A stretch of DNA of 64,000 nucleotides from positions 11,163 to 75,162 of the forward strand of contig JAUSJO010000006.1 of assembly GCA_030647205.1 (NCBI GenBank). Reading direction: 5' to 3'. A model generated the notes under the pieces. It did not search any database, was not told the DNA's origin, and saw nothing but the letters and a program-made list of their open reading frames with translations. The DNA comes from a bacterium (GTDB lineage Bacteria > Patescibacteriota > CPR2 > UBA1875 > JAJYID01). The translations under genes and the position numbers were made by a program. Numbering within the stretch: position 1 is the first letter of the stretch; every line of letters begins with the position of its first letter. Below, piece after piece: positions 44,176-64,000 of the stretch.

Positions 44176-44179
44176 ATAT

Positions 44180-50786: not shown

Positions 50787-50791
50787 TTCAA

Positions 50792-50905: not shown

Positions 50906-50954
50906 AACAACCGCCTTTCTCAAAAATTTTGATAATCACTAACAGCTTAAGCTC

Positions 50955-51068: not shown

Positions 51069-51091
51069 GCTACAAGATAGGTATCAGCTGT

Positions 51092-51877: not shown

Positions 51878-51891
51878 CTCCTCCTTTTACG

Positions 51892-52881
51892 TTAGCCGAT
51901 CGGATCGGTAGATTTGACTAGCCGTACGCCGAGCTTTTCCATTTCGGCGAGTTCGGCATTGGCGATTTCATCGAACGGAACATCGGGATGTTCCACCGAA
52001 GAGGTGCAGTCCATCAGAAAACGGATTTTGCCGAGGATATCATCCTGACCGGCAAAGTGGTTTACGATGGAGCGCATCGTATCCAGCACACAGTGGCTTT
52101 TCGCCTCGCCGGCTACATAAACCAGGTCGTGTCTGGCAACAAGGTCCAGAAACGGAGTGTTTAAGTCACCGGCCGGGTGCTTGGGATACTTTACTTCGGG
52201 TTCTACGATGGAGTAGTTTTCCGTCTGCGGGATAGAACCCTTGACGAGGAAAACCGGCTGCGAACGCCTGGCAGCGGAGTGGAAGGCAATTGCCTCCATC
52301 AGATTCGGCACCAGTGCCTGACCGGGAGTGCCGATCATGCAGTGGAAGGGCCAGATCATCAGGGTCTTCTTGCCGCCCTTGTCGAGCTCTGTCAGGTATT
52401 TCCGCGTCCATACGGGATCGACTACAGGCCTCCACTTACCATCCTCCACGTCTTTCAGCGTGATCATCGTGTAGGGAGCAGGTGGATTCCCGTTCTCATC
52501 TACCCACCATGTGGAGTAGAAGATCTGAACGGGGATATGCGAGTCGATGCTCGAGGCGATGGTCGTCACTTGATCCAGATTCCGAAAAATCCAGTCAACT
52601 GTCCTTTCTACATCACCGAGAGCATTTGTTACCGGAAGGGCGCCGTTCGGGAAGACGAAGTCGACCTGGAAATCTACATTTACCAGGATGACTTTCTGCT
52701 TATCCTCAGTGGCCGGAGCCACGTTCTGCCGGCGGCCTTCTTCCGTTGCTTCTTGGACCTTCGGTAGTACGAGAGATCCCAAAGTAGAGGGATCATAGAA
52801 AGCTGGAGCTTTCATCTTTTGTTCCTCCTTTTGGAAGTAGTTTTTGGATTTGGCTAACAAGTTTATTTTGCCTTGCCTCAC
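51892..52881 (-). CDS. pncA: Nicotinamidase PncA (isochorismatase-family cysteine hydrolase) with N-terminal extension
   Basis: ILVNVDFQVDF (catalytic Asp region), IWPFHCMIGTPGQAL (PncA WPxHC signature), VAGEAKSHCVLDT (catalytic Cys). Its start overlaps the kinase stop by 4 nt. Confidence 0.7.
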   Translation of the reverse strand: MRQGKINLLAKSKNYFQKEEQKMKAPAFYDPSTLGSLVLPKVQEATEEGRRQNVAPATEDKQKVILVNVDFQVDFVFPNGALPVTNALGDVERTVDWIFRNLDQVTTIASSIDSHIPVQIFYSTWWVDENGNPPAPYTMITLKDVEDGKWRPVVDPVWTRKYLTELDKGGKKTLMIWPFHCMIGTPGQALVPNLMEAIAFHSAARRSQPVFLVKGSIPQTENYSIVEPEVKYPKHPAGDLNTPFLDLVARHDLVYVAGEAKSHCVLDTMRSIVNHFAGQDDILGKIRFLMDCTSSVEHPDVPFDEIANAELAEMEKLGVRLVKSTDPIG

Positions 52882-54722
52882 CTCTTTCTTATCAGGAATA
52901 CTTTATTGTCGCTTACGACAACGATATTCCCCTGAAAGCCGTGGAGTTTTTCATCTCCCTGGATGAATTTGTCAGTTCCGGTAAACTCGAAAGTGCTACC
53001 TTTTGTGAGAGACTTTCCTTTTAGCCCATTTGCCGTGGCAAAAAGAAGCGAACCATTACCTAGGGTCGCACCCTGTAAGTTACCGTGATCTTCATCATTG
53101 TATGGTTCACGACTCTTAAAGAGAGAAACGCCTTTGTCACTTATATAATCAAGTAGGACAAATGCTTTACCTTTCTTTTTCGTCTCACGGATAACCAGAG
53201 TGCCCTTGGTGTCAAACCGGGCATTTAAGGAAACTAGCTTCTCGCCTTTCTCGAGTTCCCTAACATCAGCTTCATAACTGGCTCCGTTTATCAGGACCCG
53301 GTAGACCCACTTATCGAATATCCGACTAACCACTACGAGCTTTTCTTTGTCACCAACAGTTTCTCCATGAAACCAGGTCTGTTCATCGGCTATAGTGGTA
53401 ACAGTTCTGCTAACGAGATTCCCTGCCATCATTTCTGACTTTAGGAGAATACCGCCGGCCGCTCTGTATAGTGAGTCTTTAGTGCCGGATTTTACGGGAT
53501 AGTTTTGGAACAAATCGGTTGTGGTTTTTGTAACCACTGAACCATCATCTGTATCCAAGACTATCAGTCGCTCGGAGCCTTTTCTCAACAAAATTACTTT
53601 GTCGAGAGCAATGTCGAAACCCAGATCGGGAGCTACGGGGAAAAGAACAGTCTTCTGTGTTTTTCCTCCTCTCCATGTATGTAGCACTGCCATTCCATTC
53701 TCGTAGGCAATAGCATAAAGCTTGTTGCCAACTAGTTTGGAGTAGATAAAATGCCCGGACGTCTCAGAAATCATAGATATCTCATAGTCGAGAATAATCT
53801 TCTGATTTATTACAAACGCCGACTTTGTGCTGCATACCGGGCACTGACGCCTACTGTGAGGAAAATACTCATGACACTTAGGACATTCTATTAAGATGCC
53901 GTTATATTCCTCGAGAATGTTCTTTGGAAGTTGGCCTATACGGCCTTTTTCGAAAGTTTTCTCGAAGTATTCAAGCAGTGCGTCAGAAAGTATTTCCCTA
54001 CTTAGGGCAAATTTCGGATAACGCACATCTTTATCAAATGCAGTTACTTTCTTTTTTGCCCTTTCGGTCAGCTGGTTTATCTTGGGGTGAACACCTCCGT
54101 AAGGATGGACTAGAAGTAGTGAACGGAACAGAAGCACTGCGAAGCTGTACCAGTCCGTCTCGGGGGTAAAGACCAAACCACTGGTAAGATCTTTATTATA
54201 GAGAGCCGGACTTAGGAATGGCTCTGTTGCCACTTGGCAAGGAAACCGATCAAACTGAAAGCTATCTACATCTATGAAATAGACTTGGTCTTTCAGGAAG
54301 ATCTCGTTTAAGTCATTTAAGTCTCCAACCACGAAGCCGGCTCTGTGCAGTTTTTCAACTGTACTATAAGCATTCAGAAAGACATCAGTAACATCTTTGA
54401 TATTGATTCCGCTGGTTTTTCTGAAGTTTCGATTGCTCAGTTTCGCCAGCGGTTCTGCCCCAGGATCAGCAAGTGGCATCATATATCCAACCACTCTGCC
54501 GTTTCCTTCCGCTTTTACCAGTTCACGAGGTGCAAGCACCCGATCCGGTAAAAGCGGCCCTTTCTTGAGGAGAGCTTGCAGTTTCTGTGTTTTTTCTCTG
54601 CTCGGCTTGTGGAATATCTTGTATGCAGCCTTTCCTTTCTTTATTACTACTGCCTCGCCACCGGTTCCCAGCACATCTTTCGGGTTGAGATTGATGACTT
54701 TTCCCTGCACCACGACTCTCAT
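52878..54722 (-). CDS. Protein kinase-like (Ser/Thr kinase fold) protein with central zinc-ribbon and a large C-terminal beta-rich domain
   Basis: Gly-loop LGTGGEAVVIKKGKAAYKIF, catalytic-loop-like HRAGFVVGDLNDLN, and a DFG-like IDVDSF. Then CPKCHEYFPHSRRQCPVC. 614 aa. Confidence 0.65.
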   Translation of the reverse strand: MRVVVQGKVINLNPKDVLGTGGEAVVIKKGKAAYKIFHKPSREKTQKLQALLKKGPLLPDRVLAPRELVKAEGNGRVVGYMMPLADPGAEPLAKLSNRNFRKTSGINIKDVTDVFLNAYSTVEKLHRAGFVVGDLNDLNEIFLKDQVYFIDVDSFQFDRFPCQVATEPFLSPALYNKDLTSGLVFTPETDWYSFAVLLFRSLLLVHPYGGVHPKINQLTERAKKKVTAFDKDVRYPKFALSREILSDALLEYFEKTFEKGRIGQLPKNILEEYNGILIECPKCHEYFPHSRRQCPVCSTKSAFVINQKIILDYEISMISETSGHFIYSKLVGNKLYAIAYENGMAVLHTWRGGKTQKTVLFPVAPDLGFDIALDKVILLRKGSERLIVLDTDDGSVVTKTTTDLFQNYPVKSGTKDSLYRAAGGILLKSEMMAGNLVSRTVTTIADEQTWFHGETVGDKEKLVVVSRIFDKWVYRVLINGASYEADVRELEKGEKLVSLNARFDTKGTLVIRETKKKGKAFVLLDYISDKGVSLFKSREPYNDEDHGNLQGATLGNGSLLFATANGLKGKSLTKGSTFEFTGTDKFIQGDEKLHGFQGNIVVVSDNKVFLIRKR

Positions 54723-54725
54723 TTC

Positions 54726-55451
54726 TCACCCTCCTTCCGTCTGGATTTTCTCGATCGTTATCAAGGTTGCATCGTCTGAGAAGTGCTTTTTCTTTGAGTA
54801 AACGTTTAAGAGGCGCTGAACTCCATTTGGATGTTCTTTGCCCCAGAACTCGTTTATCAGCTCCGGCTCAAAGCCGTCACTTGCTATGGCAACTCTCTGA
54901 ACTTTCTGCAGATTAACCTCTATCCTCTTGAAACTGACTTGCTTTCCGAATAGACGGTAAGCGAAGTAGGCCGGTGTGTTATCCTCATCAATGACGAGAA
55001 CATCATCATCAATGAATATAGTTCCATCACCGCTTGAGAATATCACCAGTTTTTTTCCGTCAGTCACAAACCCTAAAATAGTGGCCAAGAGATTATCTTG
55101 GACAAATGGAGTCTGCCACCAGCCCCTTGAAAGTTCATCGAGAAAATCACCTGTTGAATCTTCGATGTGATCAACGATCTCTTCCAAGGACCATCTTTGG
55201 CATATTCTCGGAACTGTGCTTTCACCAAGAATGCTTACTACCCTTTGAACAATGAGATTTGCCCCGACCTCGCTGGTCTTGGCGCTCCCGCATCCATCAG
55301 AGAGAATACCCGCTCGGAGGATTTTTGGTTCTCCGAACAGCGACTTGATTGGTTCCGGCTCATAGATCTGGTAAGCATCCTGACAGTTTTTACCTATCAA
55401 GGAATGTTGCCTTCCTATAACCTTGCCTCCCCTTATTCTAAGAGTGTCCAT
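54726..55451 (-). CDS. PP2C-family (PPM) Ser/Thr protein phosphatase
   Basis: GRQHSLIGKNCQDAY (the RxxxxNxDA motif), SDGCGS, IASDGF, DDATLI. Confidence 0.75.
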   Translation of the reverse strand: MDTLRIRGGKVIGRQHSLIGKNCQDAYQIYEPEPIKSLFGEPKILRAGILSDGCGSAKTSEVGANLIVQRVVSILGESTVPRICQRWSLEEIVDHIEDSTGDFLDELSRGWWQTPFVQDNLLATILGFVTDGKKLVIFSSGDGTIFIDDDVLVIDEDNTPAYFAYRLFGKQVSFKRIEVNLQKVQRVAIASDGFEPELINEFWGKEHPNGVQRLLNVYSKKKHFSDDATLITIEKIQTEGG

Positions 55452-55561
55452 TTTGCTTCCCTTCTATAGGTTTTAGCGATTCTTTTGTCAAAGTCCTCAT
55501 TGGTTTGATATTATCGCTCCTTTGTAATTGTTACACATACACTAACTCTTTCTATCAATAT

Positions 55562-55582
55562 ATAGTGTTTATATAACACTAT
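55562..55582. promoter_or_regulatory. 21-bp palindrome aTAGTGTTtatatAACACTAt (candidate NrtR-type operator, site 1) upstream of the PP2C-kinase-pncA-vWA operon
   Basis: Perfect 8-bp arms. The same half-sites recur at 55611-55629 and 57647-57665. Confidence 0.55.
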
Positions 55583-55610
55583 CTATTCTGGTTATAAAAT
55601 ACACAATGAT

Positions 55611-55629
55611 TAGTGTATATGTGACACTA
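55611..55629. promoter_or_regulatory. Palindrome TAGTGT-atatgtg-ACACTA (candidate operator, site 2)
   Basis: Read from the sequence. Lies 49 bp from site 1. Confidence 0.5.
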
Positions 55630-55697
55630 TTATACGCTCTTAAAAATCGTTGTCAAGAACTTTTTTCAAAAAAGTCTTATTTTCCCCTATTTCGTGC

Positions 55698-56384
55698 TTA
55701 TTTCTTTAAGAATTGTCCAAATGGATTGCTAATAAATCGAATGTCTTTGTCCGTGAACTGATACATTATTGCCGGACGATGAGCGCCACCCTCTTTCATC
55801 TTTGTGGCCTTGATCATTCCGGTACTTAGGATCTTTCTTCTGAAGTTTCTTTTATCGATATCCCGACCCAAAACTATCTCATAAACTTTCTGAAGATCTG
55901 TCAAAGAAAAGTATTTGGGGAGCAAACTATAAACAACATTTGTATATTCCATTTTCCAGACTAATCTTTTTGTCGCATAGCTCAGTATTTCATTATGATC
56001 AAAAGCGAGTTTTGGAATCTTTTTTAAAGGCTGCCATTTCAATCCTTTAGTATCTTTACCGTTTTTAGCAGACACTGCTTCGGCGCTGACAAGGGCAAAG
56101 TAAGCAATGGAAATTACTCTTCCTCTTGGATCTCTTTTTGGGTCACCAAACGTATAGAGCTGCTCCAGATAGACGTCCTTTACTCCTGTTTTTTCGAATA
56201 AAGTTCTCTGAGCCGCCTCTTCGAGATCTTCTTTTTCACCTACAAAACCTCCCGGAAGAGACCATCCTTCCGGTCCATATGTCCTCTCTACCGTTAAAAC
56301 ATTCAGCTCGTCGTCAATGATCGTAAAGATAACTACGTCCGTAGCAACTGATGGAGGGATAAAATTGTCTTTTTTTCTGCTCAT
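55698..56384 (-). CDS. nrtR: Nudix-related transcriptional regulator NrtR-like (Nudix domain plus C-terminal winged helix)
   Basis: Degenerate Nudix box GGFVGEKEDLEEAAQRTLFEKTGV. C-terminal LTDLQKVYEIVLGRDIDKRNFRRKILSTGMIKAT...GGAHRPAIMYQF matches the NrtR wHTH pattern as I recall it. Sits within an NAD-metabolism neighbourhood. Confidence 0.6.
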   Translation of the reverse strand: MSRKKDNFIPPSVATDVVIFTIIDDELNVLTVERTYGPEGWSLPGGFVGEKEDLEEAAQRTLFEKTGVKDVYLEQLYTFGDPKRDPRGRVISIAYFALVSAEAVSAKNGKDTKGLKWQPLKKIPKLAFDHNEILSYATKRLVWKMEYTNVVYSLLPKYFSLTDLQKVYEIVLGRDIDKRNFRRKILSTGMIKATKMKEGGAHRPAIMYQFTDKDIRFISNPFGQFLKK

Positions 56385-56776
56385 TATATTGCTCCTATGC
56401 TTTTCATATATTCTTCATATCTTCTGACAAACTCCTCGATATCATCTTTGTATACCCTAACTTCATGATAATCATCCGGATTGCCCTTTATCCCAATTCC
56501 ATCCCCTAAATAGGGGTATTCATCAGAAAAATTTTTGTTAATATAGCGGCTGCCGTACTGGCTTTGTTTGCCTAAAAGATCATGCGATATCACACCAAAT
56601 TTTACAAATCCTTCCTGATCTATTTCTGCAAAAATTTCCGGTAATTCTCCACCTCTGTTTTTTCTATGCCAATCATCATTTTCCTTTGCTTTCTCTAGAG
56701 CTTCTAACACCCGAGTATGCAAATCCTTTTCTTGAACCTCCTCTTGTCCTTCTTCTGTTTTTGGTATTTCTCCCAT
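56384..56776 (-). CDS. Hypothetical 130-aa protein between nadK and nrtR
   Basis: ORF track. Its stop overlaps the nrtR start. Confidence 0.4.
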   Translation of the reverse strand: MGEIPKTEEGQEEVQEKDLHTRVLEALEKAKENDDWHRKNRGGELPEIFAEIDQEGFVKFGVISHDLLGKQSQYGSRYINKNFSDEYPYLGDGIGIKGNPDDYHEVRVYKDDIEEFVRRYEEYMKSIGAI

Positions 56777-56807
56777 ATGTTTGATTTAACTACTATTTAA
56801 ATTTTCC

Positions 56808-57647
56808 TCAGTTTTTGTCATATGCTCTGACGGCTACATTATGGTTAGATAAGTTAAACTTTTTCTCTAACGCCTCATAAAAATGATCTTTGTTAAAAAG
56901 AACCATACGATAATAATGAGATTTTCTAAGCTTCACCACATCTCCCTCTTTTAGAGGAATACCCTTTGATCCGTCAACAGAAAGAAATGCTTCTTCTCCC
57001 TCGATATTTTTAAGCTCAGTAACCTCCGTCTCAGGCACCAGGATTGTGGGGACAGGAAGTCCCTGCGGGCATATGGAAGTGACAAAGAAACATTTTACAC
57101 CCGGAGCGGCAATAGGCCCCCCGGCAGAAAGGTTATATGCGGTGGAACCTGTTGTCGTAGAAACCAAAACGCCGTCTCCTCTAAACTTTACCCGATGAGT
57201 GCCACCCACAGAAACCCCGACAGTTACAACCGAAGATAATCCCTTCACCACTACATCATTTACAACATAATCTGACCTGACAAGATTGCCCCCACTCATA
57301 AGGTCAGCTAAGATCCCGACCCTTTCCTGCAAATGATAATCTTTGCCTTCTTCGCCCTTAACAAATTGAAGAACCTTCTCGGCCGCATCCTCTTCCTCAA
57401 CCACCGCTAGAAATCCTACTCTACCGGCATTAACACCTAAAATAGGGATGTCTTTTTCTTTGGCAAATCGTATTGCTTCTATAATAGTACCGTCACCACC
57501 AATAGCAATAACCGCCTGAACGTCATGATCAGCTTCTTTTGCCGGAACGACTTCTACACCTTCTTTATCCAAAGCAGAGGCAATTACCTTTGAGATCTTG
57601 ACTGCTTTTTCCCTGCCCTCATTTACAACTACTGCTATTTTTTTCAT
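56808..57647 (-). CDS. nadK: NAD+ kinase NadK (PpnK)
   Basis: GGDGT, NDVVV and TTTGSTAYNLSAGGPI motifs. The start is taken at MKKIAVVV (the ORF track extends 15 codons further, to 57692). Confidence 0.8.
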   Translation of the reverse strand: MKKIAVVVNEGREKAVKISKVIASALDKEGVEVVPAKEADHDVQAVIAIGGDGTIIEAIRFAKEKDIPILGVNAGRVGFLAVVEEEDAAEKVLQFVKGEEGKDYHLQERVGILADLMSGGNLVRSDYVVNDVVVKGLSSVVTVGVSVGGTHRVKFRGDGVLVSTTTGSTAYNLSAGGPIAAPGVKCFFVTSICPQGLPVPTILVPETEVTELKNIEGEEAFLSVDGSKGIPLKEGDVVKLRKSHYYRMVLFNKDHFYEALEKKFNLSNHNVAVRAYDKN

Positions 57648-57665
57648 AGTGTTATTATAACACAT
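57647..57665. promoter_or_regulatory. Palindrome TAGTGTTattatAACACA (candidate operator, site 3), abutting the nadK start and containing a TATAAT -10-like hexamer on the minus strand
   Basis: Same half-sites as sites 1 and 2. Also sits in the divergent region shared with the NMNAT-like/MTase gene. Confidence 0.5.
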
Positions 57666-57742
57666 CATATCAAAGTGTCTATTGATCTTCATGCCTCAAA
57701 GATCTAATGCTATAATAACTGAGAAGGCATAACTATAAATCT

Positions 57743-59344
57743 ATGACATATATATTATTTCCCGGCAGACATCACCTCCTAACAAACTTTCAATTTGATT
57801 ATCTAAATCAAATAGCCAAAGAAGGGTTAGCGGGTATAAAAGATATTGATGGTAAATCCTTCTCGCCAAACGAGAAAGTTGATGAAGTTGTTTTCGCTAT
57901 TACCTCTGCAAATCACGCAAATACCAGAAGGAATCCATTGCCGCTATATCAAAGAGCAATGGCTGTCCAAGATTTCTCGCACGATCTCCCTATAAAAACC
58001 ACGATATACGATATTAACGATATCGGGGTCAGCGAGAGCTTTGCCGACTATGTTCTAAAGAGAATCTATAGCCGCAGTGAGGGAAGCCTAAAACTAACTC
58101 CCGATAATACTATTGTCGCATGCTCTACACCTGTGCTTGAAATGTACAAGAAACTAGGCTTTAGGATCTTACCCGTAGAACTCCTATCCAAAGATTTCAA
58201 AAGATATGCAGACAATTTGCCATGGGAAATAATCGAAGAAGTCGCAAATATCCAAGACAACTGGATGGAGAATAAACTATATAAGGGAAAAACCCATCCA
58301 GCCTCGAAAAGACTATGGGAAACTTATGATATTGGAGACAAAGTCCAGCAGCTCTTTAGAGACACTATAATAGGAGAAGATGGCGATATTACAGAGACTA
58401 GAGATTACAATACCTATGTGCGTTCCATGGATCATAGTACCGAACAAAAATACTCCGAAACTTCAAGTTTTGTCAAACCGGGGAGAATTGGCGACATCGG
58501 ATGTGCCGTAGGATCATGGATCAAGTTTGCCTGCCAAGACTCAAGACTGGCAGAGTCAGATTTCTATGGGATAGAAGTGACTAGAAAACTCTACGATATT
58601 TGCGAACAAAGAAAGGATAATGGAGAGTTTTCTAGTGATTACGTGTTTTTCTCAAGAAAAAATGCCATAACCGGCCTGGTCTTTGAACCCGATAGCATGG
58701 ATAGTATCCTAACATCATCCCTAACTCATGAGATAGAATCTTATGGAGGCAGAGGAGATCTTCTTAAATTTATTAAAAACCGAGCTGCCGAGTTAAATGA
58801 GGGGGGACGATGGATAAACAGGGACGTTGTCGGCCCGGACGATGGTAGCAAAACTGTATATTTGGAGCTAAACTCTTCAGATGGAAGGAATGATGACTAT
58901 GATCAAGCAATTGGAAACCGAGATAAGTTAAAGGAATATTTAGACGGTCTATCTACTTATGCTAAATTTTTACGATTCTCCAAAGATTTTAGGAAAAATG
59001 AAAGCGAGCAGGTCAAATATGAAGCTGTCTCTATTGATAATAAAAACCTGATTAAACTACAGCTAAAAGATGCCTGTGAGTTTGTGACTAAAAAGGACTA
59101 TACCGACAACTGGCAAAGTGAAATGCATGAGACTTTCTGTTTCTGGAGTTTTGATGACTGGAAACAACACTTGGAAAAGGCCGGGTTAAAGGTTCATCCG
59201 CAATCAAAAGCTTTCGTAAATCCGTGGGTAATCAAGAAGCGGGTCCAAGGGAAAGTAAAACTCTATACACTACAAGACAAAACACTAAATGAAATCGATT
59301 ATCCTGTCAGTAATATGGTCTTAGTCGCCGAGAAACGCCATTAG
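57743..59344 (+). CDS. Fusion protein: N-terminal NMNAT-like (cytidylyltransferase-fold, NadM-like) domain plus C-terminal class I SAM-dependent methyltransferase domain
   Basis: N-terminus ILFPGRHHLL... and VVFAITSANHANTRRNPLPLYQRAMAV align to archaeal NMNAT IGIGSAQ.SHT.KNPFTAGER..M. C-terminus has MTase motif I (IGDIGCAVGSW), post-I acidic (FYGIEV), motif II and motif III (LNEGGRWI). Confidence 0.55.
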   Translation: MTYILFPGRHHLLTNFQFDYLNQIAKEGLAGIKDIDGKSFSPNEKVDEVVFAITSANHANTRRNPLPLYQRAMAVQDFSHDLPIKTTIYDINDIGVSESFADYVLKRIYSRSEGSLKLTPDNTIVACSTPVLEMYKKLGFRILPVELLSKDFKRYADNLPWEIIEEVANIQDNWMENKLYKGKTHPASKRLWETYDIGDKVQQLFRDTIIGEDGDITETRDYNTYVRSMDHSTEQKYSETSSFVKPGRIGDIGCAVGSWIKFACQDSRLAESDFYGIEVTRKLYDICEQRKDNGEFSSDYVFFSRKNAITGLVFEPDSMDSILTSSLTHEIESYGGRGDLLKFIKNRAAELNEGGRWINRDVVGPDDGSKTVYLELNSSDGRNDDYDQAIGNRDKLKEYLDGLSTYAKFLRFSKDFRKNESEQVKYEAVSIDNKNLIKLQLKDACEFVTKKDYTDNWQSEMHETFCFWSFDDWKQHLEKAGLKVHPQSKAFVNPWVIKKRVQGKVKLYTLQDKTLNEIDYPVSNMVLVAEKRH

Positions 59345-59358: not shown

Positions 59359-60339
59359 TCATTTTTTAATGAGACCCGGAAACATAACATCAGCAAGATA
59401 ACTTGCTACATTTCTCGATTTTCCTTTACCCGGCATCATGTGCATGCTCAGTCCCGGGTTTGAGTTGACCTCAACAATACCATAACTAGACTTTGTTTGT
59501 GGCTCATCAATGTTTTCGGTCATTATATCTAAACCAATAAAAGGTAAACCTTGAAAAACATCTAACACTTTTTGAGCAATGTCGATAACTGAACTATGCA
59601 CTTCATCTGTAACGTCTTCACTCACTCCTCCCTTAGCCAAGTTTGAGGTCTTTCTTAAATAAATCTTTTCATCTTTTTTTGGTATATACCTGAGATCTTT
59701 ACCAGACTCCTTAAGAAAATTATCAACCTGCCTGTCAAACACAATTGGACAGAGATATCTTTTTTTACGGTCGTCCCTCTTTTTTGACTCGATCTCACCC
59801 AACTCACTTATATTATGTTTACCGTCACCTATAACATGAGCTGGGTCTCTATTAAGAACAGCGTACTTTCCTTCTATAGTAATAAAAACCCGATATTCTT
59901 TGCCGGGGAGATGTTTTTCTACAAGGAAGAGCGTGTTTACACCTGTTTCTTCTTCTAAGTGGTTGACGGCCGACACAAGTTCTCTTTCATTTTTTATCTC
60001 TACAAAAACACTGTCGCCATGAGAACCCCAGTTTGGTTTGACAACTACCGGAAATCCAATCTTTTGAGCGTACTCTACAGCTTCCTTAAATGAATGCGCG
60101 CTAAAAACTTCTCCTTCCGGAGCGCTGATTCCATTTTTCCGAAGAAGATTTTTCGTAAGATATTTATCAGCAGTCATTTTAACCAGATTATAGGGTGAGA
60201 GAGAACTGAACCTATCCAAAAGGAACTCCTTTCGCCCCTCATAAATTACTTCAATGAGTTCTATTTCCGGGTCAGCATCTCTAACTTTGGCCCCACGTCT
60301 TTTAAGTTCATCGACTAGAAGTTTTTGATTGGTATGCAT
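59359..60339 (-). CDS. ATP-grasp family ligase (cyanophycin-synthetase N-terminal / RimK-like)
   Basis: GFPVVVKPNWGSHGDSVFV, HVIGDGKHNISELGE, EVNSNPG are ATP-grasp hallmark segments. Confidence 0.7.
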   Translation of the reverse strand: MHTNQKLLVDELKRRGAKVRDADPEIELIEVIYEGRKEFLLDRFSSLSPYNLVKMTADKYLTKNLLRKNGISAPEGEVFSAHSFKEAVEYAQKIGFPVVVKPNWGSHGDSVFVEIKNERELVSAVNHLEEETGVNTLFLVEKHLPGKEYRVFITIEGKYAVLNRDPAHVIGDGKHNISELGEIESKKRDDRKKRYLCPIVFDRQVDNFLKESGKDLRYIPKKDEKIYLRKTSNLAKGGVSEDVTDEVHSSVIDIAQKVLDVFQGLPFIGLDIMTENIDEPQTKSSYGIVEVNSNPGLSMHMMPGKGKSRNVASYLADVMFPGLIKK

Positions 60340-60371
60340 CTTACCTGTCGAGTATTAAATGTGGCATCTTC

Positions 60372-60890
60372 CTAAGATGACTCACCATTACTATTGATTA
60401 TCAAGCCTCTCCCCGTAGATCTTCCCCCACCGTACCTTCCTCGGTCTGCGCTACCCGACTCACCAGAGGAGTTGCTAGTATTAAATACACCCTTCACTCT
60501 ACCCCCACTCCCTGACTCGTCACTCTTTTCTCTAGAAGACTTACTTTCTGACCTTTGGGCTCTACTGGCTTCCGATTCCCCCATATCACGAGCTGACGAC
60601 TCTCCCTTTTCTGCCTTCCGCTCACCCTCACTATCTGATAACTCTTTCTTTTTTTGATCGATCGTGCGATCAAGTATCTGATTGTCTAAAATCCTCGCCT
60701 TGTCGAAATCTCCGGCATCGAGCGCTTTTCTAAGAGCCCTACGCAGGTCTTTAAGACTCTGGCGCTCCTTATCAGAAAATTCACGGTTAATCTCACCTCT
60801 AGTTCCCTTTTCACCTTTACGGACAATACCCCCTGACTCACCGCTTGTTTCTCGGGGTGATTCGCCTCCTTCACTCATTCTCTCCAACAT
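60372..60890 (-). CDS. Low-complexity S/E/R/G-rich (predicted disordered) protein
   Basis: ORF track. Compositionally biased. Confidence 0.35.
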   Translation of the reverse strand: MLERMSEGGESPRETSGESGGIVRKGEKGTRGEINREFSDKERQSLKDLRRALRKALDAGDFDKARILDNQILDRTIDQKKKELSDSEGERKAEKGESSARDMGESEASRAQRSESKSSREKSDESGSGGRVKGVFNTSNSSGESGSADRGRYGGGRSTGRGLIINSNGESS

Positions 60891-60936
60891 GTTCTCTCTC
60901 CCAATTAGTTAAATTTATAATAACACTGAGACCACA

Positions 60937-61620
60937 CTACTTGCAATAAATAGCTACCTTATGCTCTATTTTGCTGCCTTGGACCCTATGTTTTGCTTCT
61001 TTCCCCCATATAAAACCTATAACTTTTCTTGCCTCATCTAGATCCTTAAATTCAAAAAATGTTGTGAAATGCGAGTACTCTCTGAAGCCGTTTTTAACCA
61101 ACCATTCGTTATATTTTTTAGTTCTTTCCAAGGGATCGTTGGTCCTTCCTCTTATTTGTTCAAACTCACCACCTGTATCGTTCTCGACTAAAAATATTTT
61201 GCCTCTCGGCTTCAAGGTTCTTTCAATGTTACAAAGTATATCCTTCCTTCTCTTTTCGTCCTCAACCGTCCCCAATACCCAAGAAGCAAGAGCCACGTCT
61301 ATACTTTTGGATGGTAGCTTCATATCCTCTGCCTGAGTATGCACAAAGTCTATATTATCGTACCCATCAGTGTCTTTTTCTGCCAAGCTAAGCTGATCTT
61401 TCGAGGCGTCAAGAGCCACAATCTTCGGAGCATACGGAGCAAACAGTTTTGTATATTTACCAGAACCGCAACCAAGATCTAGGAGTGTCTTACCTTTCAT
61501 TTCTGAAAGTAATGTTTCAAATATCTTGCCAGGTGCATCCTCTCTTGCACTGAAAAGCCGATAGATCCCGGCCTCTTCATAATAACTTTTCGACTTTTCC
61601 CCTAGACTATACTTCTTCAT
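60937..61620 (-). CDS. Class I SAM-dependent methyltransferase
   Basis: Motif I LLDLGCGSGKYT, post-I acidic residue (ALDAS), motif II/III. Confidence 0.75.
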   Translation of the reverse strand: MKKYSLGEKSKSYYEEAGIYRLFSAREDAPGKIFETLLSEMKGKTLLDLGCGSGKYTKLFAPYAPKIVALDASKDQLSLAEKDTDGYDNIDFVHTQAEDMKLPSKSIDVALASWVLGTVEDEKRRKDILCNIERTLKPRGKIFLVENDTGGEFEQIRGRTNDPLERTKKYNEWLVKNGFREYSHFTTFFEFKDLDEARKVIGFIWGKEAKHRVQGSKIEHKVAIYCK

Positions 61621-61621
61621 A

Positions 61622-63538
61622 TTACACCTTTACTTTCTCGAGATAGGCGATCGCATCCCGATACCCCTTGCCCATAGCACTATCAAAAACAAATTCTTTA
61701 TACCTTGTCCCTTCTATCCCCCCAAACACTTCTTTCCGTCTCTTATGATCGTTGATTTCATTTCTTTTCTTTGAATTATTTTTACTATCGAAGTCATAAA
61801 TATAAGCGAACACTATTTTCCCACCAGTTTTTAATTTTCCCAACAATACAGAGACAATCAGATTCTTAAATTCCGACAAATAATCATCCGTGTTAAACAT
61901 CAGATGCGTATAATCAGAGATATTTGAAAGAATTATAAGATCAAACGTTTCATGCCCGTCTAACTCTTGCCCTAAATTCTTAAGCGATGAAGAAACCCAG
62001 TGATAGCAACCTTCCTTTATGCGTTTTTGAGCCTTACTATATATAACTTCATTCTCCAGATAGAGATTATTGCTTACTTTCCTCTGCTTCTCGTCATATA
62101 TGTTGTTAAATATTTCTGATTCGCGGAGTTTTTCCCCATTGAAATCGAAACGTTCGTAAGCCTGATTAAAAAAATATCTGGCCTGAAAGGATATATCTCC
62201 TTTAACTTCATTGTAGTTATTATACGAAAGAACCTCTTCTCCTTTATCCCTCATTAAAAAATTCTTAAAGGTATTAAGTCCATGACTCTTAAGATAGGCT
62301 ACTTTAAGCTCGGTAAAGTATTGAGCTAAAAGATTTATATCGAAACATTTTACATTATTTGCGCCTAGAAGATACGCATTGATAAGGTGGTCTCCTGAAG
62401 CTCCTACGGTCAGTACGCTCTTTTCTTTAAAATCAAACTTAGGGAAATAGCCTGCTATATTTTCCGTTGTGAAAGAGTAAATCTTGTTATACTCACTGAA
62501 TTTAGGACGCCCGGTTGTCTCATGCAGATGCTCTTCAAAAAAACTGTCAAGTTTCTGCGCGTCTTTTGTCTCATCGATCGCTTCCATCGGACAGTAATCA
62601 ATATTTGCCAAAGCAAGGCGGTCGACCAGAGAACGGTAAGACGATATCTCTTTTGATTTTAGAATCTCATCTAGCCCGTATTTGTGTAAATCTTTGCCAC
62701 TTACATACTGAGGGGCTCTTTCCGTAACCCAAGTACAAGGTGAGACACGACCCTTATGATCTATCGATAGAAATTTATCACCCCCCGGACAAACTCCATC
62801 AACTTTTTCTCCTATCTTTTCGGTAAAACTATGACTTACTTTTATATGTTCCTTGTATTTTTTTGTCAGTATTTCTATCTCATTTTTTAGATCAGTAGCT
62901 AATCTTAAAGAAATAAGATTTTTATTGCCTCTTAGCCTCCCCACTGGCTCAAGCCGAGAGAAGATCACCTCATCTACCCCCAAATCAATGCAAAGCTTGA
63001 CCATATTTTCCATTTTCTCTTCATTTTGAGCAAATATTAAAGAACCCACTCTCGTATATAAACCGTGTTTGACTAGGCTTTTTATCCCTTTAGTTGTTCT
63101 CTCGAAGGACTTTTCTCCTCTCACAATCTCATTTAGTTCTGGCGTGCAGCCGTCTAAGCCAACATGTATCATACTAATATTTAGTTTTTTTAGTTTACTT
63201 GCCAGCTCATCATCGATGACTGACGCATTTGTGGAAATATCAGTCTTTAATCCAACCTTATCGGCAAATATCATTAGTTCTAAGATGTCTTCTCTCAAGA
63301 ATGGTTCTCCCCCAGTAATCTTGAGGTGCGTTATCCCGGCGCTCTTTAGATCTTTGATACATTTTTTCACTTCTCCAGTACTAAGCTCGTCTTTTGGCTT
63401 TTTGGCGGTAGAGCTGAAGATGCAGTGAGGACATCTATAGTTGCATCTGTTGGTTATCTCCCAAATCACTCTCCCTCCATCCTCCGGGATTCGAAATAGA
63501 CAAAATGCATATTTATTTTTTGTAGATATTTTTACCAT
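61622..63538 (-). CDS. Radical SAM / SPASM(twitch)-domain protein fused to a C-terminal SAM-MTase-like (Rossmann) domain
   Basis: CNYRCPHC (CxxxCxxC), ITGGEPFL, auxiliary-cluster region CPGGDKFLSIDHKGRVSPC...C. The C-terminal ~300 aa have MTase-like motifs VLTVGASGD, FDLIILSNISDY and LKTGGKIVFAY. Confidence 0.7.
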   Translation of the reverse strand: MVKISTKNKYAFCLFRIPEDGGRVIWEITNRCNYRCPHCIFSSTAKKPKDELSTGEVKKCIKDLKSAGITHLKITGGEPFLREDILELMIFADKVGLKTDISTNASVIDDELASKLKKLNISMIHVGLDGCTPELNEIVRGEKSFERTTKGIKSLVKHGLYTRVGSLIFAQNEEKMENMVKLCIDLGVDEVIFSRLEPVGRLRGNKNLISLRLATDLKNEIEILTKKYKEHIKVSHSFTEKIGEKVDGVCPGGDKFLSIDHKGRVSPCTWVTERAPQYVSGKDLHKYGLDEILKSKEISSYRSLVDRLALANIDYCPMEAIDETKDAQKLDSFFEEHLHETTGRPKFSEYNKIYSFTTENIAGYFPKFDFKEKSVLTVGASGDHLINAYLLGANNVKCFDINLLAQYFTELKVAYLKSHGLNTFKNFLMRDKGEEVLSYNNYNEVKGDISFQARYFFNQAYERFDFNGEKLRESEIFNNIYDEKQRKVSNNLYLENEVIYSKAQKRIKEGCYHWVSSSLKNLGQELDGHETFDLIILSNISDYTHLMFNTDDYLSEFKNLIVSVLLGKLKTGGKIVFAYIYDFDSKNNSKKRNEINDHKRRKEVFGGIEGTRYKEFVFDSAMGKGYRDAIAYLEKVKV

Positions 63539-64000
63539 TTTTATAACCTATCTTTTCTATTATCTCTTGCACCAAACATTCATAACTGTCTCTACCCGGA
63601 TCCTTTGTTGTATCAAAAACTTTTACCATTTTACCTTGGTTCTGTGCTATTTCTAATCTTTTCTTGTCCAGCGACCTGTAAAAGTCGACCCTCTGTAAAA
63701 GCTGGTCGTCTGACATATCTTGGCTTCTCTTTAAACGACCAAGCTGTACGTCATTGGCACAAGTCAGTATGAGAATATTCCCCTTAACAAGTGGCAGAAA
63801 ACCATCTTCAACCAGCATAGCCCATTCTACAGCAGTAACTCCTTCTGAATCATTCTGCCGGATAATCTCTTTCTTAATGAAGGGGTTTATGGTTTCTTTA
63901 AAAATTATCATTTTTTCTTCATCTGCGAATACCTTGCTTCCCAAATCAAGTAAGTCAATAAAAAAATCCGGACTTTCAGAGTTCAAATCAAGCGCTTCTG
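63513..64000 (-). CDS. Hypothetical protein, N-terminus outside the window (in-frame open to position 64000)
   Basis: ORF track (TTG at 63986), with no stop upstream before the window end. Overlaps the rSAM gene start by 26 nt. Confidence 0.35.
   Translation of the reverse strand, partial: EALDLNSESPDFFIDLLDLGSKVFADEEKMIIFKETINPFIKKEIIRQNDSEGVTAVEWAMLVEDGFLPLVKGNILILTCANDVQLGRLKRSQDMSDDQLLQRVDFYRSLDKKRLEIAQNQGKMVKVFDTTKDPGRDSYECLVQEIIEKIGYKNGKNIYKK

What the first reader, a model, noticed from the sequence alone, without database searches (positions are those of the whole stretch)
59359..64000. Operon-like cluster: radical SAM/SPASM-MTase-like fusion, SAM methyltransferase, disordered Ser/Glu/Arg-rich protein, ATP-grasp ligase
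Five minus-strand genes with 2-46-nt gaps or overlaps. The 638-aa protein joins a radical SAM core (CxxxCxxC) and a SPASM/twitch auxiliary-cluster region to a ~300-aa Rossmann/MTase-like domain, an unusual fusion. It is followed by a standalone class I MTase, a 172-aa low-complexity S/E/R/G-rich protein and an ATP-grasp ligase of the cyanophycin-synthetase/RimK type. rSAM-SPASM enzymes and ATP-grasp ligases are the signature maturases of RiPPs (sactipeptide/ranthipeptide and graspetide classes) and of peptide or protein tail modifications. The Ser/Glu-rich protein, or an unannotated small ORF, could be the substrate. This may be a previously undescribed peptide/protein modification or small-molecule pathway.
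Basis: inference. Interest (0 to 1): 0.55.

Follow-up and report, generated by a model that had tools for sequence, protein, structure and literature searches.

The report
Six-gene cassette modifying a repeat protein
The five genes are most of a six-gene cassette found in very different uncultured bacteria and archaea: four enzyme proteins that use SAM (including a fusion of two enzyme domains), a kinase, and an ATP-dependent ligase, sitting beside a disordered protein whose only conserved feature is a repeated Gly/Ser-Glu-Ser motif, which is probably their substrate; the chemistry is unknown and appears undescribed.

Summary
All five minus-strand ORFs and their domain calls hold: a radical SAM (rSAM) domain with one auxiliary cluster fused to a DUF3419/BtaA-like domain, a class I methyltransferase, a 172-aa low-complexity protein, and an ATP-grasp ligase like the cyanophycin synthetase G domain. 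The fifth gene, cut by the window end, is a CoaE-like P-loop kinase. A sixth gene, a B12-binding rSAM, lies just beyond the window.

Of 49 related loci with enough flanking sequence, 41 carry the DUF3419 domain, B12-rSAM, ATP-grasp and methyltransferase. These loci come from Patescibacteria, DPANN archaea, Bdellovibrionales, Alphaproteobacteria, Melainabacteria and gut Firmicutes. Kinase, rSAM, DUF3419 and methyltransferase are repeatedly fused.

The key result is a variable protein, usually directly upstream of the ATP-grasp, that carries 1-19 copies of [G/S]-E-[S/T], often followed by R. Among 1,272 ORFs in 68 loci, the 49 most motif-dense all lie in the cassette. Three of four loci fetched afterwards had the predicted protein.

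The cassette most likely modifies the invariant Glu of a dedicated substrate protein. The chemistry is inferred only. It is not a sactipeptide, ranthipeptide or graspetide system. No curated family or paper was found. Interest is fairly high.

The parts
63513..64000 (-). CoaE-like P-loop kinase, 3' part only. The gene is 224 aa and its start lies about 190 nt beyond the window end.
   Evidence: Pfam CoaE scores 1e-5 on the window fragment. The full gene read on the identical contig L001 (1818-2492) scores CoaE 3.5e-11 and carries the P-loop GVTGGIGTGKS. It falls below the NCBIfam equivalog cut-off (41 vs 65.6 bits). It is fused to the rSAM domain in many homologues.
62579..63538 (-). Radical SAM core plus one auxiliary Fe-S cluster region (twitch/SPASM-like), residues 1-320 of the 638-aa fusion protein.
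   Evidence: Radical_SAM scores 5e-29 and SPASM 2.8e-4. Conserved Cys are C13, C32, C36, C39, C250, C268 and C316. The AF2 model has pLDDT 93.7. The best structural matches are SkfB, BlsE, SuiB, PqqE, anSME and viperin. The best PDB sequence match is SkfB at 2.6e-25.
61622..62491 (-). DUF3419/BtaA-like class I SAM-binding domain, residues about 350-638 of the fusion protein, plus the stop codon.
   Evidence: PF11899 scores 8.9e-5 here and matches 67 of 67 homologues, best 2e-20. The domain model has pLDDT 95.5. Foldseek finds only distant class I SAM enzymes, the best being spermine synthase at E 1e-5 and TM about 0.4. The domain also occurs as a stand-alone protein of about 300 aa in other genomes.
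60937..61620 (-). Class I SAM-dependent methyltransferase (227 aa).
   Evidence: Methyltransf_11 scores 8.6e-19, and no NCBIfam model reaches its cut-off. It is present in 43 of 49 related loci on the same strand. It is fused to rSAM-DUF3419 in some homologues, such as P0023.
60372..60890 (-). Candidate substrate: a 172-aa disordered protein with no Cys and eight [G/S/D]-E-S sites (GGESP, SGESG, KGESS, MGESE, RSESK, SDESG, SGESG and C-terminal NGESS).
   Evidence: It has no Pfam, NCBIfam or PADLOC family. It has 7 [GS]ES motifs against 1.05 expected, and 0 of 1000 shuffles reach that count. Motif-bearing proteins occupy the same position in related loci. Compared with the 89%-identical cassette L082, the reading frame is kept through in-frame indels and the GES-bearing ends are conserved while the middle diverges.
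60801..60890 (-). N-terminal motif zone of the candidate substrate (residues 1-30, containing GGESP and SGESG).
   Evidence: 27 of 30 residues are identical to L082, while the middle of the protein diverges.
60375..60623 (-). C-terminal motif zone of the candidate substrate (residues 90-172, six E-S sites, ending NGESS).
   Evidence: The last 45 or so residues are almost identical to L082.
59359..60339 (-). Stand-alone ATP-grasp ligase of the cyanophycin synthetase G-domain / GshAB C-terminal type (326 aa).
   Evidence: NCBIfam cyanophycin synthetase scores 7e-72 over profile positions 210-473 only. PDB CphA1 entry 7wac scores 2.3e-47. It is the best-conserved cassette protein, with a median of 47% identity, and is found in 46 of 49 loci.

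Best explanation
The five window genes are most of a self-contained, horizontally spread six-gene cassette. Its members are:
- a B12-binding rSAM (just outside the window);
- a CoaE-like P-loop kinase;
- an rSAM/auxiliary-cluster domain fused to a DUF3419 domain;
- a class I methyltransferase;
- a repeat-motif protein;
- an ATP-grasp ligase like the cyanophycin synthetase G domain.

The 172-aa S/E/R/G-rich protein is the dedicated substrate. Across phyla and domains its only conserved feature is a short linear motif: a small residue, then an invariant Glu, then usually Ser or Thr and often Arg. The motif occurs in 1-19 copies in a disordered stretch. The enzymes therefore probably recognise the motif itself rather than a leader peptide, and they decorate the Glu and/or its neighbours at several sites.

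Shown here:
- the conserved gene set and its repeated gene fusions;
- the motif, its positional linkage to the ATP-grasp and its specificity to the cassette;
- the enzyme folds and families.

Inferred from homology, not shown:
- The ATP-grasp activates a carboxylate as an acyl phosphate and forms an amide. The most likely carboxylate is the Glu gamma-carboxylate or a newly installed one.
- The DUF3419 domain and the methyltransferase act like BtaA and BtaB: they transfer a SAM-derived 3-amino-3-carboxypropyl (ACP) group and then methylate it.
- The two rSAM enzymes carry out radical C-H chemistry, and the B12 enzyme probably C-methylates.
- The kinase phosphorylates a hydroxyl on the substrate or on an attached group.

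The order of steps and the final structure are unknown.
For: Cassette conservation. Of 49 family loci with enough flanking sequence, 47 have DUF3419, 48 the B12-rSAM, 46 the ATP-grasp, 43 the methyltransferase and at least 38 the kinase. Nearly all hits are on one strand (one ATP-grasp hit is not), and 41 loci have the DUF3419 domain, B12-rSAM, ATP-grasp and methyltransferase. The loci come from Patescibacteria, DPANN archaea, Bdellovibrionales, Alphaproteobacteria, Gastranaerophilales, and gut Clostridia, Bacilli and Tenericutes, plus Margulisbacteria.

Gene fusions. Kinase-rSAM, kinase-rSAM-DUF3419, rSAM-DUF3419-methyltransferase and four-domain fusions all occur.

Substrate evidence.
- A variable ORF lies directly upstream of the ATP-grasp in nearly every locus.
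- It carries repeated [G/S]ES motifs: 257 motifs in the 54 candidate proteins kept (53 locus ORFs plus the window protein), with Arg next in 76%, and most proteins are reached by 0 of 1000 shuffles.
- Of 1,272 ORFs in 68 loci, the 49 most motif-dense are all inside the cassette on its strand. All 45 ORFs with at least 3 motifs and at least 2 per 100 aa are in the cassette, one per locus, and none lies outside.
- In an out-of-sample test, three of four newly fetched loci had the predicted ORF starting MSES... The fourth had a tail ending ...GYGSNE on a neighbouring protein.
- The GES-bearing ends are conserved between the window and its 89%-identical relative, while the middle diverges.

Enzyme evidence.
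- The rSAM domain is closest in sequence and fold to the peptide maturases SkfB, SuiB, PqqE and anSME.
- The ATP-grasp matches the CphA1 G domain in the PDB at 2.3e-47.
- BtaA is the DUF3419 enzyme that transfers ACP from SAM in betaine-lipid synthesis (PMC10491745 and PMC10685587).

Absence of other conserved neighbours. All-against-all clustering found no other conserved neighbour, including no protease, exporter or release hydrolase.
Against: - No modification has been observed. Every chemical step is inferred by analogy.
- There is no recognisable RiPP recognition element (RRE), leader peptide, protease or exporter.
- Some loci lack a clear motif ORF or have a reduced cassette (L005, L040, L063).
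- Others carry only a single terminal Glu on a large protein (L003, L004, L142).
- The rSAM fold is about equally close to the nucleoside/nucleotide-acting enzymes BlsE, viperin and MoaA. The kinase belongs to a nucleotide-kinase family. Nudix or NrtR genes often lie nearby. A nucleotide substrate is therefore not excluded.
- The residue after Glu is Asn in some Alphaproteobacteria and is absent when Glu is C-terminal. This argues against Ser as the essential site.
- The DUF3419 domain cannot be told apart from a methyltransferase by fold.
Confidence: 0.6

Rival explanations
1. Carrier-protein pathway, working like LysW and other amino-group carrier proteins (AmCP). The ATP-grasp tethers a small amine or amino acid to the gamma-carboxylate of the motif Glu. 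The kinase, rSAM enzymes, DUF3419 domain and methyltransferase then build a small molecule on that tether, and the product is later released. The repeat protein would be a scaffold, not the end product.
For: - Glu after a small residue is invariant, and some proteins end in ...GASGE...YSSGE...TGGE or ...GSNE. This recalls the C-terminal Glu attachment site of LysW (own knowledge).
- AmCP-gamma-linked intermediates are established (PMC11726168).
- An ATP-grasp plus a kinase acting on a tethered substrate matches the LysX/LysZ logic (own knowledge).
- The non-motif part of the protein varies freely.
Against: - No release hydrolase, reductase or aminotransferase is conserved in the loci.
- Up to 19 sites per protein would be unusual for a carrier.
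- There is no LysW-like zinc-ribbon domain and no Pfam or NCBIfam hit.
- The ATP-grasp is CphA-like (7e-72), not LysX-like (1.3e-15).
- The kinase is a P-loop hydroxyl/nucleotide kinase, not an amino-acid kinase.
Confidence: 0.17
2. Small-molecule or nucleotide pathway, such as a modified nucleoside or peptidyl nucleoside, or a viperin-plus-kinase-like product. The enzymes would act on a soluble metabolite, and the repeat protein would be a regulator, a chaperone or unrelated.
For: - The kinase is of the CoaE (adenosine 3'-OH) type and is fused to the rSAM domain.
- The rSAM domain resembles BlsE, viperin and MoaA nearly as well as it resembles peptide maturases, and it matches PADLOC pVip models at 72-75 bits.
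- Nudix or NrtR genes flank the cassette in several lineages, and the window has an adjacent NAD gene island.
Against: - This does not explain why a protein whose only conserved feature is a short motif is kept next to the ATP-grasp across domains of life.
- The pVip match is weaker than the matches to SPASM-type maturases (124 bits to MftC).
- No scaffold-building enzyme is conserved.
- The NAD genes are not conserved with the cassette.
Confidence: 0.12
3. Protein-primed polymer. The CphA-like ATP-grasp would grow an amino-acid chain from the Glu carboxylates of the repeat protein, as a cyanophycin-like or polyglutamylation-like tail, and the other enzymes would tailor it.
For: - The ATP-grasp is strongly similar to the chain-extending G domain of CphA1.
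- The targets are Glu-rich disordered tails, as for RimK and tubulin ligases (own knowledge; RimK in PMC10375531, listed).
Against: - The CphA N and M domains are absent (the match covers profile positions 210-473 only).
- This gives no role to four SAM-using domains and a kinase.
Confidence: 0.06
4. Housekeeping RNA, ribosomal-protein or lipid modification, such as a wybutosine-like tRNA pathway or a betaine lipid. The repeat protein would be incidental.
For: - An rSAM enzyme, an ACP transferase and methyltransferases together resemble the wybutosine enzyme set (own knowledge).
- DUF3419's only characterised member acts on a lipid.
- Foldseek lists some rRNA and tRNA methylases among distant matches.
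Against: - The distribution is patchy and crosses domains of life, and relaxase genes lie next to the cassette in gut Clostridia.
- No RNA-binding domains were found.
- The RNA-methylase matches are weak (TM about 0.35, about 10% identity).
- The dedicated motif protein is left unexplained.
Confidence: 0.04

Closest known systems
BtaA/BtaB (betaine lipid DGTS synthesis)
   Same: A DUF3419-family SAM enzyme is paired, and sometimes fused, with a class I methyltransferase. BtaA transfers 3-amino-3-carboxypropyl (ACP) from SAM (PMC10491745; DUF3419 annotation of BTA1 in PMC10685587).
   Different: - Here the DUF3419 domain is fused to a radical SAM domain.
- It sits in an operon with a kinase, a B12-rSAM, an ATP-grasp and a motif protein.
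- No lipid genes are present.
- The window protein scores below Pfam's cut-off.
- ACP transfer is untested.
Radical SAM peptide maturases with SPASM/twitch domains (SkfB, SuiB, PqqE, anSME)
   Same: These are the best sequence and fold matches of the rSAM half. They share CxxxCxxC and extra Cys for an auxiliary cluster. The enzyme is encoded next to its presumed substrate.
   Different: - There is no N-terminal RRE/PqqD-like domain.
- Only about 4 auxiliary Cys are present (one cluster).
- The substrate has no Cys in the window and no fixed aromatic partner.
- The rSAM domain is fused to a SAM-binding Rossmann domain.
Cyanophycin synthetase CphA1 (G domain) and GshAB C-terminal domain
   Same: The ATP-grasp matches the CphA1 G domain in the PDB at 2.3e-47. 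It presumably uses the same acyl-phosphate amide-ligation chemistry.
   Different: It is stand-alone at 326 aa, with no N or M domain, so it is not a cyanophycin synthetase. The acceptor and the donor are unknown.
LysW / amino-group carrier protein systems
   Same: An ATP-grasp and a kinase are encoded with a small acidic-tailed protein whose Glu could be an attachment point (PMC11726168; own knowledge for LysW, LysX and LysZ).
   Different: - There are many sites instead of one.
- There is no zinc-ribbon domain.
- The ATP-grasp and kinase belong to different families.
- No release hydrolase is present.
Diphthamide pathway (Dph2, Dph5, Dph6)
   Same: The logic is the same, from own knowledge: ACP from SAM is placed on a protein side chain, then methylated, then its carboxylate undergoes ATP-dependent amidation.
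   Different: The enzymes are unrelated. The diphthamide target is one His of EF2. This resemblance is recalled, not tested.
Microcin C maturation (MccD/MccE)
   Same: It is a ribosomal peptide pathway that uses a SAM-dependent ACP transferase (PMC10491745).
   Different: - MccD is described as not homologous to BtaA.
- No MccB-like adenylating enzyme is present here.
- Microcin C has a single C-terminal site.
His-Xaa-Ser repeat system (HxsA with rSAM HxsB/HxsC)
   Same: It is a short tripeptide repeat protein encoded with radical SAM maturases (own knowledge of TIGRFAM/NCBIfam descriptions).
   Different: The motif and the enzyme set differ. No NCBIfam Hxs model matched any cassette protein.
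Prokaryotic viperin-kinase pairs (pVip)
   Same: A nucleotide-type kinase is linked or fused to an rSAM enzyme. PADLOC pVip models match the rSAM core at 72-75 bits.
   Different: - The match is generic and weaker than the matches to SPASM maturases.
- The extra auxiliary cluster, DUF3419 domain, ATP-grasp and motif protein have no counterpart.
- The family is absent from the viral contigs searched.

Membership tests
Radical SAM superfamily | CxxxCxxC motif for the SAM-binding 4Fe-4S cluster in a partial TIM barrel | tested here: met
   C32, C36 and C39 are conserved in over 90% of homologues. Pfam Radical_SAM scores 5e-29. The fold matches SkfB, PqqE and MoaA.
SPASM/twitch subgroup | C-terminal Cys-rich extension binding one (twitch) or two (SPASM) auxiliary clusters | tested here: met
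   PF13186 scores 21.6 bits against a cut-off of 21.5, and 52 of 67 homologues match. Only C250, C268 and C316 (plus C13) are conserved, which fits one auxiliary cluster, so the domain is twitch-like.
DUF3419 / BtaA family | Sequence match to PF11899 | tested here: met
   67 of 67 homologues match, best 2e-20. The window protein alone scores 22.3 bits, below the 28.2-bit cut-off.
DUF3419 / BtaA family | Transfer of 3-amino-3-carboxypropyl from SAM (MTA released) | not testable with these tools
   The fold is a class I SAM binder with no close solved relative. The best match is spermine synthase (TM about 0.4), followed by methyltransferases. This cannot separate alkyl transfer from methyl transfer.
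RiPP pathway (general) | Gene-encoded precursor next to its modifying enzymes | tested here: met
   A motif protein is adjacent to the ATP-grasp in about 50 loci, and the motif is specific to the cassette.
RiPP pathway (general) | Leader/core organisation with a recognition element, and a protease or exporter for release | tested here: not met
   No conserved leader is shared across lineages. No RRE domain was detected. No conserved protease or transporter was found.
Sactipeptide / ranthipeptide | Cys residues in the core to form thioether links | tested here: not met
   The window's 172-aa protein has no Cys, and Cys is not part of the conserved motif.
Graspetide | Graspetide-type ATP-grasp forming side-chain esters or amides within a conserved Thr/Ser-Asp/Glu core | tested here: not met
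   The best ATP-grasp matches are the cyanophycin synthetase G domain (7e-72) and GshAB (2.5e-50). RimK-type matches are far weaker (PDB matches). Ring formation is not testable.
Cyanophycin synthetase (CphA1) | N domain, ATP-grasp G domain and Mur-ligase-like M domain in one protein of about 870 aa | tested here: not met
   Only profile positions 210-473 of 871 match, the protein is 326 aa, and the score of 243 bits is far below the 877-bit cut-off.
Dephospho-CoA kinase (CoaE) | Equivalog-level match to TIGR00152 | tested here: not met
   The score is 41.4 bits against a cut-off of 65.55. PDB CoaE matches reach only 4e-4 to 1e-3. The P-loop motif is present and Pfam CoaE scores 43.6 against a cut-off of 27. 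It is therefore CoaE-like, not CoaE.
B12-binding radical SAM (class B) | N-terminal cobalamin-binding domain plus radical SAM core | tested here: inconclusive
   Radical_SAM scores 6e-21. B12-binding scores 31.0 bits, just under the 32.1-bit cut-off. The best NCBIfam relatives are BchE, the MCR glutamine C-methyltransferase, HpnJ and PhpK, all far below their cut-offs. This gene lies outside the window.
LysW-type amino-group carrier protein | Small zinc-ribbon protein with an acidic tail ending in Glu, partnered with a LysX-type ATP-grasp | tested here: not met
   The motif proteins have no family hit. The LysX match of the ATP-grasp is weak (1.3e-15, against 7e-72 for CphA). A terminal Glu is present in only some proteins.
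Anti-phage defence systems (PADLOC) | Specific match to a defence-system model set | tested here: not met
   Only generic pVip, mad2 and PDC-M51A matches to the rSAM or methyltransferase cores were found. The kinase, the ATP-grasp and the motif protein had no match.

The most novel reading that the evidence does not exclude
This is a new class of multi-site protein modification centred on Glu. A dedicated disordered protein carrying G-E-S(R) repeats would receive a composite group built from SAM and ATP. That group might be an aminocarboxypropyl-derived betaine, or a nucleoside-containing moiety amide-linked to the Glu side chain. A five-enzyme cassette that has moved between bacteria and archaea, mostly small-genome uncultured lineages, would make it. 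The enzyme combination (rSAM fused to a BtaA-like domain, a CoaE-like kinase and a free CphA G domain) would then represent chemistry not yet seen in RiPPs or protein modification.
Probability: 0.45. Interest if true: 0.85.

Novelty: new variant of a known kind. Interest (0 to 1): 0.68.

Why it matters
If the reading is right, this is an uncharacterised enzyme set with a ready-made, short and easily synthesised substrate motif (G-E-S-R). That makes the chemistry directly testable in vitro.

- It would give a first function to the bacterial and archaeal branch of DUF3419. About 780 clusters at 50% identity match at E below 1e-10.
- It would give a function to a free-standing cyanophycin synthetase G domain.
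- It would give a function to a CoaE-like kinase fused to a radical SAM enzyme.

The distribution is also notable. The cassette is found in Patescibacteria, DPANN archaea, predatory Bdellovibrionales and Micavibrio-like bacteria, Melainabacteria and reduced gut Firmicutes. It is absent from the cultured-organism plasmid set and from the viral contigs searched. This points to a transferable trait of host-associated or small-genome microbes that has escaped study because none of its carriers is cultured.

Tried and rejected
- **Unannotated small precursor ORF in the window.** Rejected. The intergenic gaps are 1, 46 and 32 nt, and the only ORFs on the opposite strand overlap real genes.
- **Phage or plasmid origin.** There are no true family members in IMG/VR viral contigs (only rSAM cores at 31% identity or less) or in PLSDB plasmids.
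- **Defence system.** PADLOC gives only generic rSAM and methyltransferase matches.
- **Identifying the C-terminal domain by structure.** The model is confident, but Foldseek finds no close solved relative. A profile search of PDB sequences hits only the rSAM half.
- **Curated families for the motif protein.** None in Pfam or NCBIfam.
- **Literature.** No paper combines DUF3419 with radical SAM, or GESR with radical SAM. Searches on ACP transfer in RiPPs, on CPR/DPANN RiPPs and on BtaA with ATP-grasp returned nothing on this cassette.
- **The convergent 533-aa gene, NAD kinase and NrtR as cassette members.** Rejected as core parts. They are kept only in the 89% relative L082. Elsewhere there is one weak partial match, in L010.
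- **Ser as the modified residue.** Weakened. The position after Glu is Asn in some Alphaproteobacteria, Thr in L006, and absent when Glu is C-terminal.
- **Nudix linkage.** Nudix genes are enriched near the cassette, but only in 13 of 68 loci, mostly related Firmicutes. Kept as a lead only.
- **Promoter and terminator scans.** These gave no more sites than shuffled sequence.

Full report
**1. The observation**

The five minus-strand ORFs are present as described. They are 63513-63986, 61622-63538 (638 aa), 60937-61620 (227 aa), 60372-60890 (172 aa) and 59359-60339 (326 aa). They are joined by a 26-nt overlap and by gaps of 1, 46 and 32 nt.

Pfam and NCBIfam confirm the domain calls:
- The 638-aa protein has a radical SAM core (5e-29, Cys32/36/39), a weak SPASM match and a weak DUF3419 match.
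- The 227-aa protein is a Methyltransf_11 class I methyltransferase.
- The 326-aa protein matches the ATP-grasp part of cyanophycin synthetase (7e-72, profile positions 210-473 of 871) and the C-terminal half of GshAB.
- The 172-aa protein matches nothing.

The fifth ORF is the 3' part of a CoaE-like P-loop kinase cut by the window end. An identical public contig (L001) shows the full 224-aa kinase. Upstream of it lies a sixth gene, a radical SAM enzyme with a B12-binding domain.

The NCBI record of the 638-aa protein starts 23 codons late. It thereby loses a conserved Cys13 and the FCLFRIP segment, which is internal in kinase-rSAM fusion homologues.

**2. A conserved, mobile cassette**

A protein search found more than 200 homologues of the rSAM-DUF3419 protein. 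Many are fused to a CoaE domain, to a Methyltransf_11 domain, or to both. All 67 aligned full-length members match DUF3419 (best 2e-20), and 52 match SPASM.

A scan of one genome per species returned 80 loci. tblastn with the window's proteins gave the following counts:
- 68 loci are true family members.
- Of the 49 with enough flanking sequence, 47 have DUF3419, 48 the B12-rSAM, 46 the ATP-grasp, 43 the methyltransferase and at least 38 the kinase.
- The kinase is the most divergent part.
- Nearly all hits are on one strand (one ATP-grasp hit is not).

The hosts are Patescibacteria (Peribacteria and Peregrinibacteria), DPANN archaea (Woese-, Pace- and Nanoarchaeota), Bdellovibrionales, Alphaproteobacteria including Micavibrio, Gastranaerophilales, many gut Clostridia, Bacilli and Tenericutes MAGs, and Margulisbacteria.

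All-against-all clustering of the ORFs in these loci found no other conserved neighbour. In particular there is no protease, transporter or hydrolase. Six gut Clostridia loci have a relaxase-like gene about 3 kb upstream. The family is absent from the viral contigs and plasmid records searched. The C-terminal domain alone has 784 relatives at E below 1e-10 among 1.84 billion cluster representatives, both fused and stand-alone.

**3. The repeat protein is the likely substrate**

In nearly every locus a variable ORF of about 50-490 aa lies directly upstream of the ATP-grasp. These proteins differ widely in their non-repeat parts:
- Firmicutes versions have a coiled-coil-like helix.
- DPANN versions have a domain of about 100 aa.
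- Two Peribacteria versions have four tandem domains.

All of them share repeated [G/S]-E-S motifs. Examples are MSESRGGESRSYSSY...GESRSSGESR in Clostridia, C-terminal GESRW in Bacilli and Tenericutes, up to 19 GESR/GESK units in a Nanoarchaeote, and GESG/GGES in Patescibacteria.

The window protein carries GGESP, SGESG, KGESS, MGESE, RSESK, SDESG and SGESG, and it ends NGESS. That is 7 [GS]ES motifs against 1.05 expected, and 0 of 1000 shuffles reach that count. Across the 54 candidate proteins kept (53 locus ORFs plus the window protein) there are 257 motifs, with Arg following in 76%.

Specificity is very strong. Of 1,272 ORFs in the 68 loci, the 49 with the highest motif density all lie within the cassette on its strand. 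All 45 ORFs with at least 3 motifs and at least 2 per 100 aa are cassette members, one per locus, and none lies outside.

As an out-of-sample test I fetched four further homologue loci. Three had the predicted ORF before the ATP-grasp: MSESVDNDGESYS..., MSESSSYGESSWGSNNGGESSS... and MSSESSTGVFSGESYV.... The Margulisbacteria locus instead had a 630-aa protein upstream of the B12-rSAM. It ends ...SSGYGSNE, like the Peribacteria proteins that end ...GASGE and ...YSSGE.

Variants show that only the Glu after a small residue is invariant: SENL/GENL in Alphaproteobacteria, GETP in L006, GESP in L009 and the window, and a terminal Glu in some.

Against the 89%-identical relative L082, the window gene keeps its reading frame through two in-frame 4-codon indels. 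It shows 25 synonymous and 33 non-synonymous codon differences. The GES-bearing N- and C-terminal zones stay almost unchanged while the middle diverges. It is therefore a real gene whose motif zones are under constraint.

**4. What the enzymes are**

- *Full-length fusion protein.* The AF2 model is confident (pLDDT 93.7). Its rSAM half is closest to SkfB, BlsE, SuiB, PqqE, anSME, viperin and MoaA. By sequence profile, SkfB is best (2.6e-25). Four conserved extra Cys fit one auxiliary cluster.
- *C-terminal domain.* Modelled alone, it has pLDDT 95.5. It is a class I SAM-binding fold with a large helical insert and no close solved relative. Spermine synthase, an aminopropyl transferase, is the top hit at TM about 0.4, followed by assorted methyltransferases. 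The only characterised DUF3419 enzyme, BtaA, transfers 3-amino-3-carboxypropyl from SAM in betaine-lipid synthesis.
- *ATP-grasp.* It matches the CphA1 G domain in the PDB at 2.3e-47 but lacks the N and M domains.
- *Kinase.* It has the CoaE P-loop but is below the equivalog cut-off.
- *B12-rSAM.* It is nearest BchE, the MCR glutamine C-methyltransferase, HpnJ and PhpK, all far below their cut-offs.

**5. Most likely mechanism**

Three things are shown here: a fixed enzyme set with repeated fusions, a dedicated neighbouring protein defined only by a Glu-centred motif, and the enzyme folds.

The rest is inferred. The motif protein is the substrate, recognised through the motif itself. I infer motif recognition because no leader or RRE is shared between lineages while the enzymes stay 40-50% identical.

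By homology, the individual roles would be as follows:
- The ATP-grasp forms an amide at a carboxylate. The invariant Glu side chain is the obvious candidate, and a carboxylate delivered by ACP transfer is the alternative.
- The DUF3419 domain and the methyltransferase act like BtaA and BtaB.
- The two rSAM enzymes do radical C-H chemistry or C-methylation.
- The kinase phosphorylates a hydroxyl.

The triad of ACP transfer, methylation and ATP-dependent amidation recalls diphthamide. That resemblance comes from memory and is a lead, not a test. I put 0.6 on "dedicated substrate modified at the motif" and much less on any single chemical step.

**6. Rivals**

- *LysW-like carrier scheme (0.17).* It fits the invariant Glu, the terminal-Glu variants and the ATP-grasp-plus-kinase pairing. 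It lacks a release enzyme, a LysW fold and a LysX-type ligase, and up to 19 sites per protein is unusual for a carrier.
- *Nucleotide or small-molecule pathway independent of the repeat protein (0.12).* It is favoured by the nucleotide-type kinase, the similar closeness of the rSAM fold to BlsE, viperin and MoaA, and nearby Nudix or NrtR genes. It does not explain the motif protein.
- *Protein-primed polymer (0.06) and housekeeping RNA or lipid modification (0.04).* Both are less likely, for the reasons given in the rival entries.

**7. Comparison with known systems, and novelty**

The system works most like a RiPP or protein-modification cassette. It fails the tests for sactipeptides and ranthipeptides (no Cys), for graspetides (wrong ATP-grasp clade), for cyanophycin synthetase (G domain only), for true CoaE, for LysW systems and for PADLOC defence systems.

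No NCBIfam model (release of June 2026) reaches its cut-off for any component. No paper in the searched library links these parts. I rate it a new variant of a known kind, namely enzyme cassettes that modify a gene-encoded substrate. Its chemistry is probably new.

**8. Limits**

Nothing here shows a modification. The MAG-derived loci are not phylogenetically independent within the gut Firmicutes. tblastn with genetic code 11 misses loci that use other codes, such as L019. The Nudix, NrtR and macro-domain links are suggestive only.

Noticed in passing
window 47722-59344: NAD-related genes sit next to the cassette. They are NAD synthase NadE (47722-48489), the NrtR regulator (55698-56384), NAD kinase (56808-57692) and a convergent 533-aa protein (57743-59344, + strand). 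The 533-aa protein has a weak NMN-adenylyltransferase-like N-terminus (NCBIfam 1e-3) and a methyltransferase-like C-terminus. The 89%-identical relative L082 has the same neighbours, but other lineages do not.
   Followed up: partly
L022, L024, L026, L027, L029, L067 (gut Clostridia); L057-L061, L064 (Bacilli); L142 9582-10505; window 55698-56384: Nudix-family genes often lie beside the cassette. Same-strand Nudix hydrolases of about 180 aa sit directly before or after it in gut Clostridia. NrtR-like proteins lie about 4 kb downstream in Bacilli and about 3 kb downstream in the window. A convergent Nudix gene follows the cassette in Margulisbacteria. Nudix-box ORFs occur in 13 of 68 loci and are denser within 2 kb of the cassette. 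This may hint at a nucleotide-linked group, but the loci are not independent.
   Followed up: partly
L142 2050-3942: In the Margulisbacteria locus, the 630-aa protein just upstream of the B12-rSAM has a weak, apparently split Macro-domain match (E 1.2e-3) and a coiled coil. Its tail is rich in Ser, Tyr and Gly and ends ...GYGSNE. It may be that lineage's substrate.
   Followed up: partly
window 63470-63538: The NCBI protein record for the rSAM fusion (P0001, 615 aa) starts at Val24. The longer ATG start is supported by the conserved FCLFRIP segment and Cys13, which are internal in kinase-rSAM fusion homologues.
   Followed up: yes
L015-L018, L031, L048, about 3 kb upstream of the cassette: A relaxase-like (plasmid mobilisation type) gene of 335-428 aa lies upstream of the cassette in six gut Firmicutes loci. 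This suggests carriage on mobilisable elements.
   Followed up: no
L057, L058, L060, L061, about 14000-15700: Four to five tandem paralogous small proteins of about 86-110 aa, with CxxC...CPCC motifs, lie between the cassette methyltransferase and an NrtR-like gene in Bacilli loci. Their function is unknown.
   Followed up: no
L010 3160-3885: In a Bdellovibrionales locus, a 157-aa ORF is followed in another reading frame by a 79-aa ORF with six GES-type motifs, just upstream of the B12-rSAM. Its N-terminal part looks, by eye, like the N-domain of the DPANN motif proteins. This could be a frameshift in the assembly or a split substrate gene.
   Followed up: no
L019; P0023 and P0032: Some family members come from organisms that use an alternative genetic code. 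L019 is broken into short ORFs under code 11. P0023 is labelled gcode 4 and shows Trp where Gly is expected. Such loci are under-counted in my ORF-based tallies.
   Followed up: no
window 43500-44256: Three tRNA-Met (CAT anticodon) genes are clustered here: one on the minus strand and two in tandem on the plus strand.
   Followed up: no
window 52878-55451: A PP2C-type phosphatase gene (54726-55451; PP2C_2 hit on record for the identical gene in L001) is followed by a 614-aa protein with no Pfam match.
   Followed up: no
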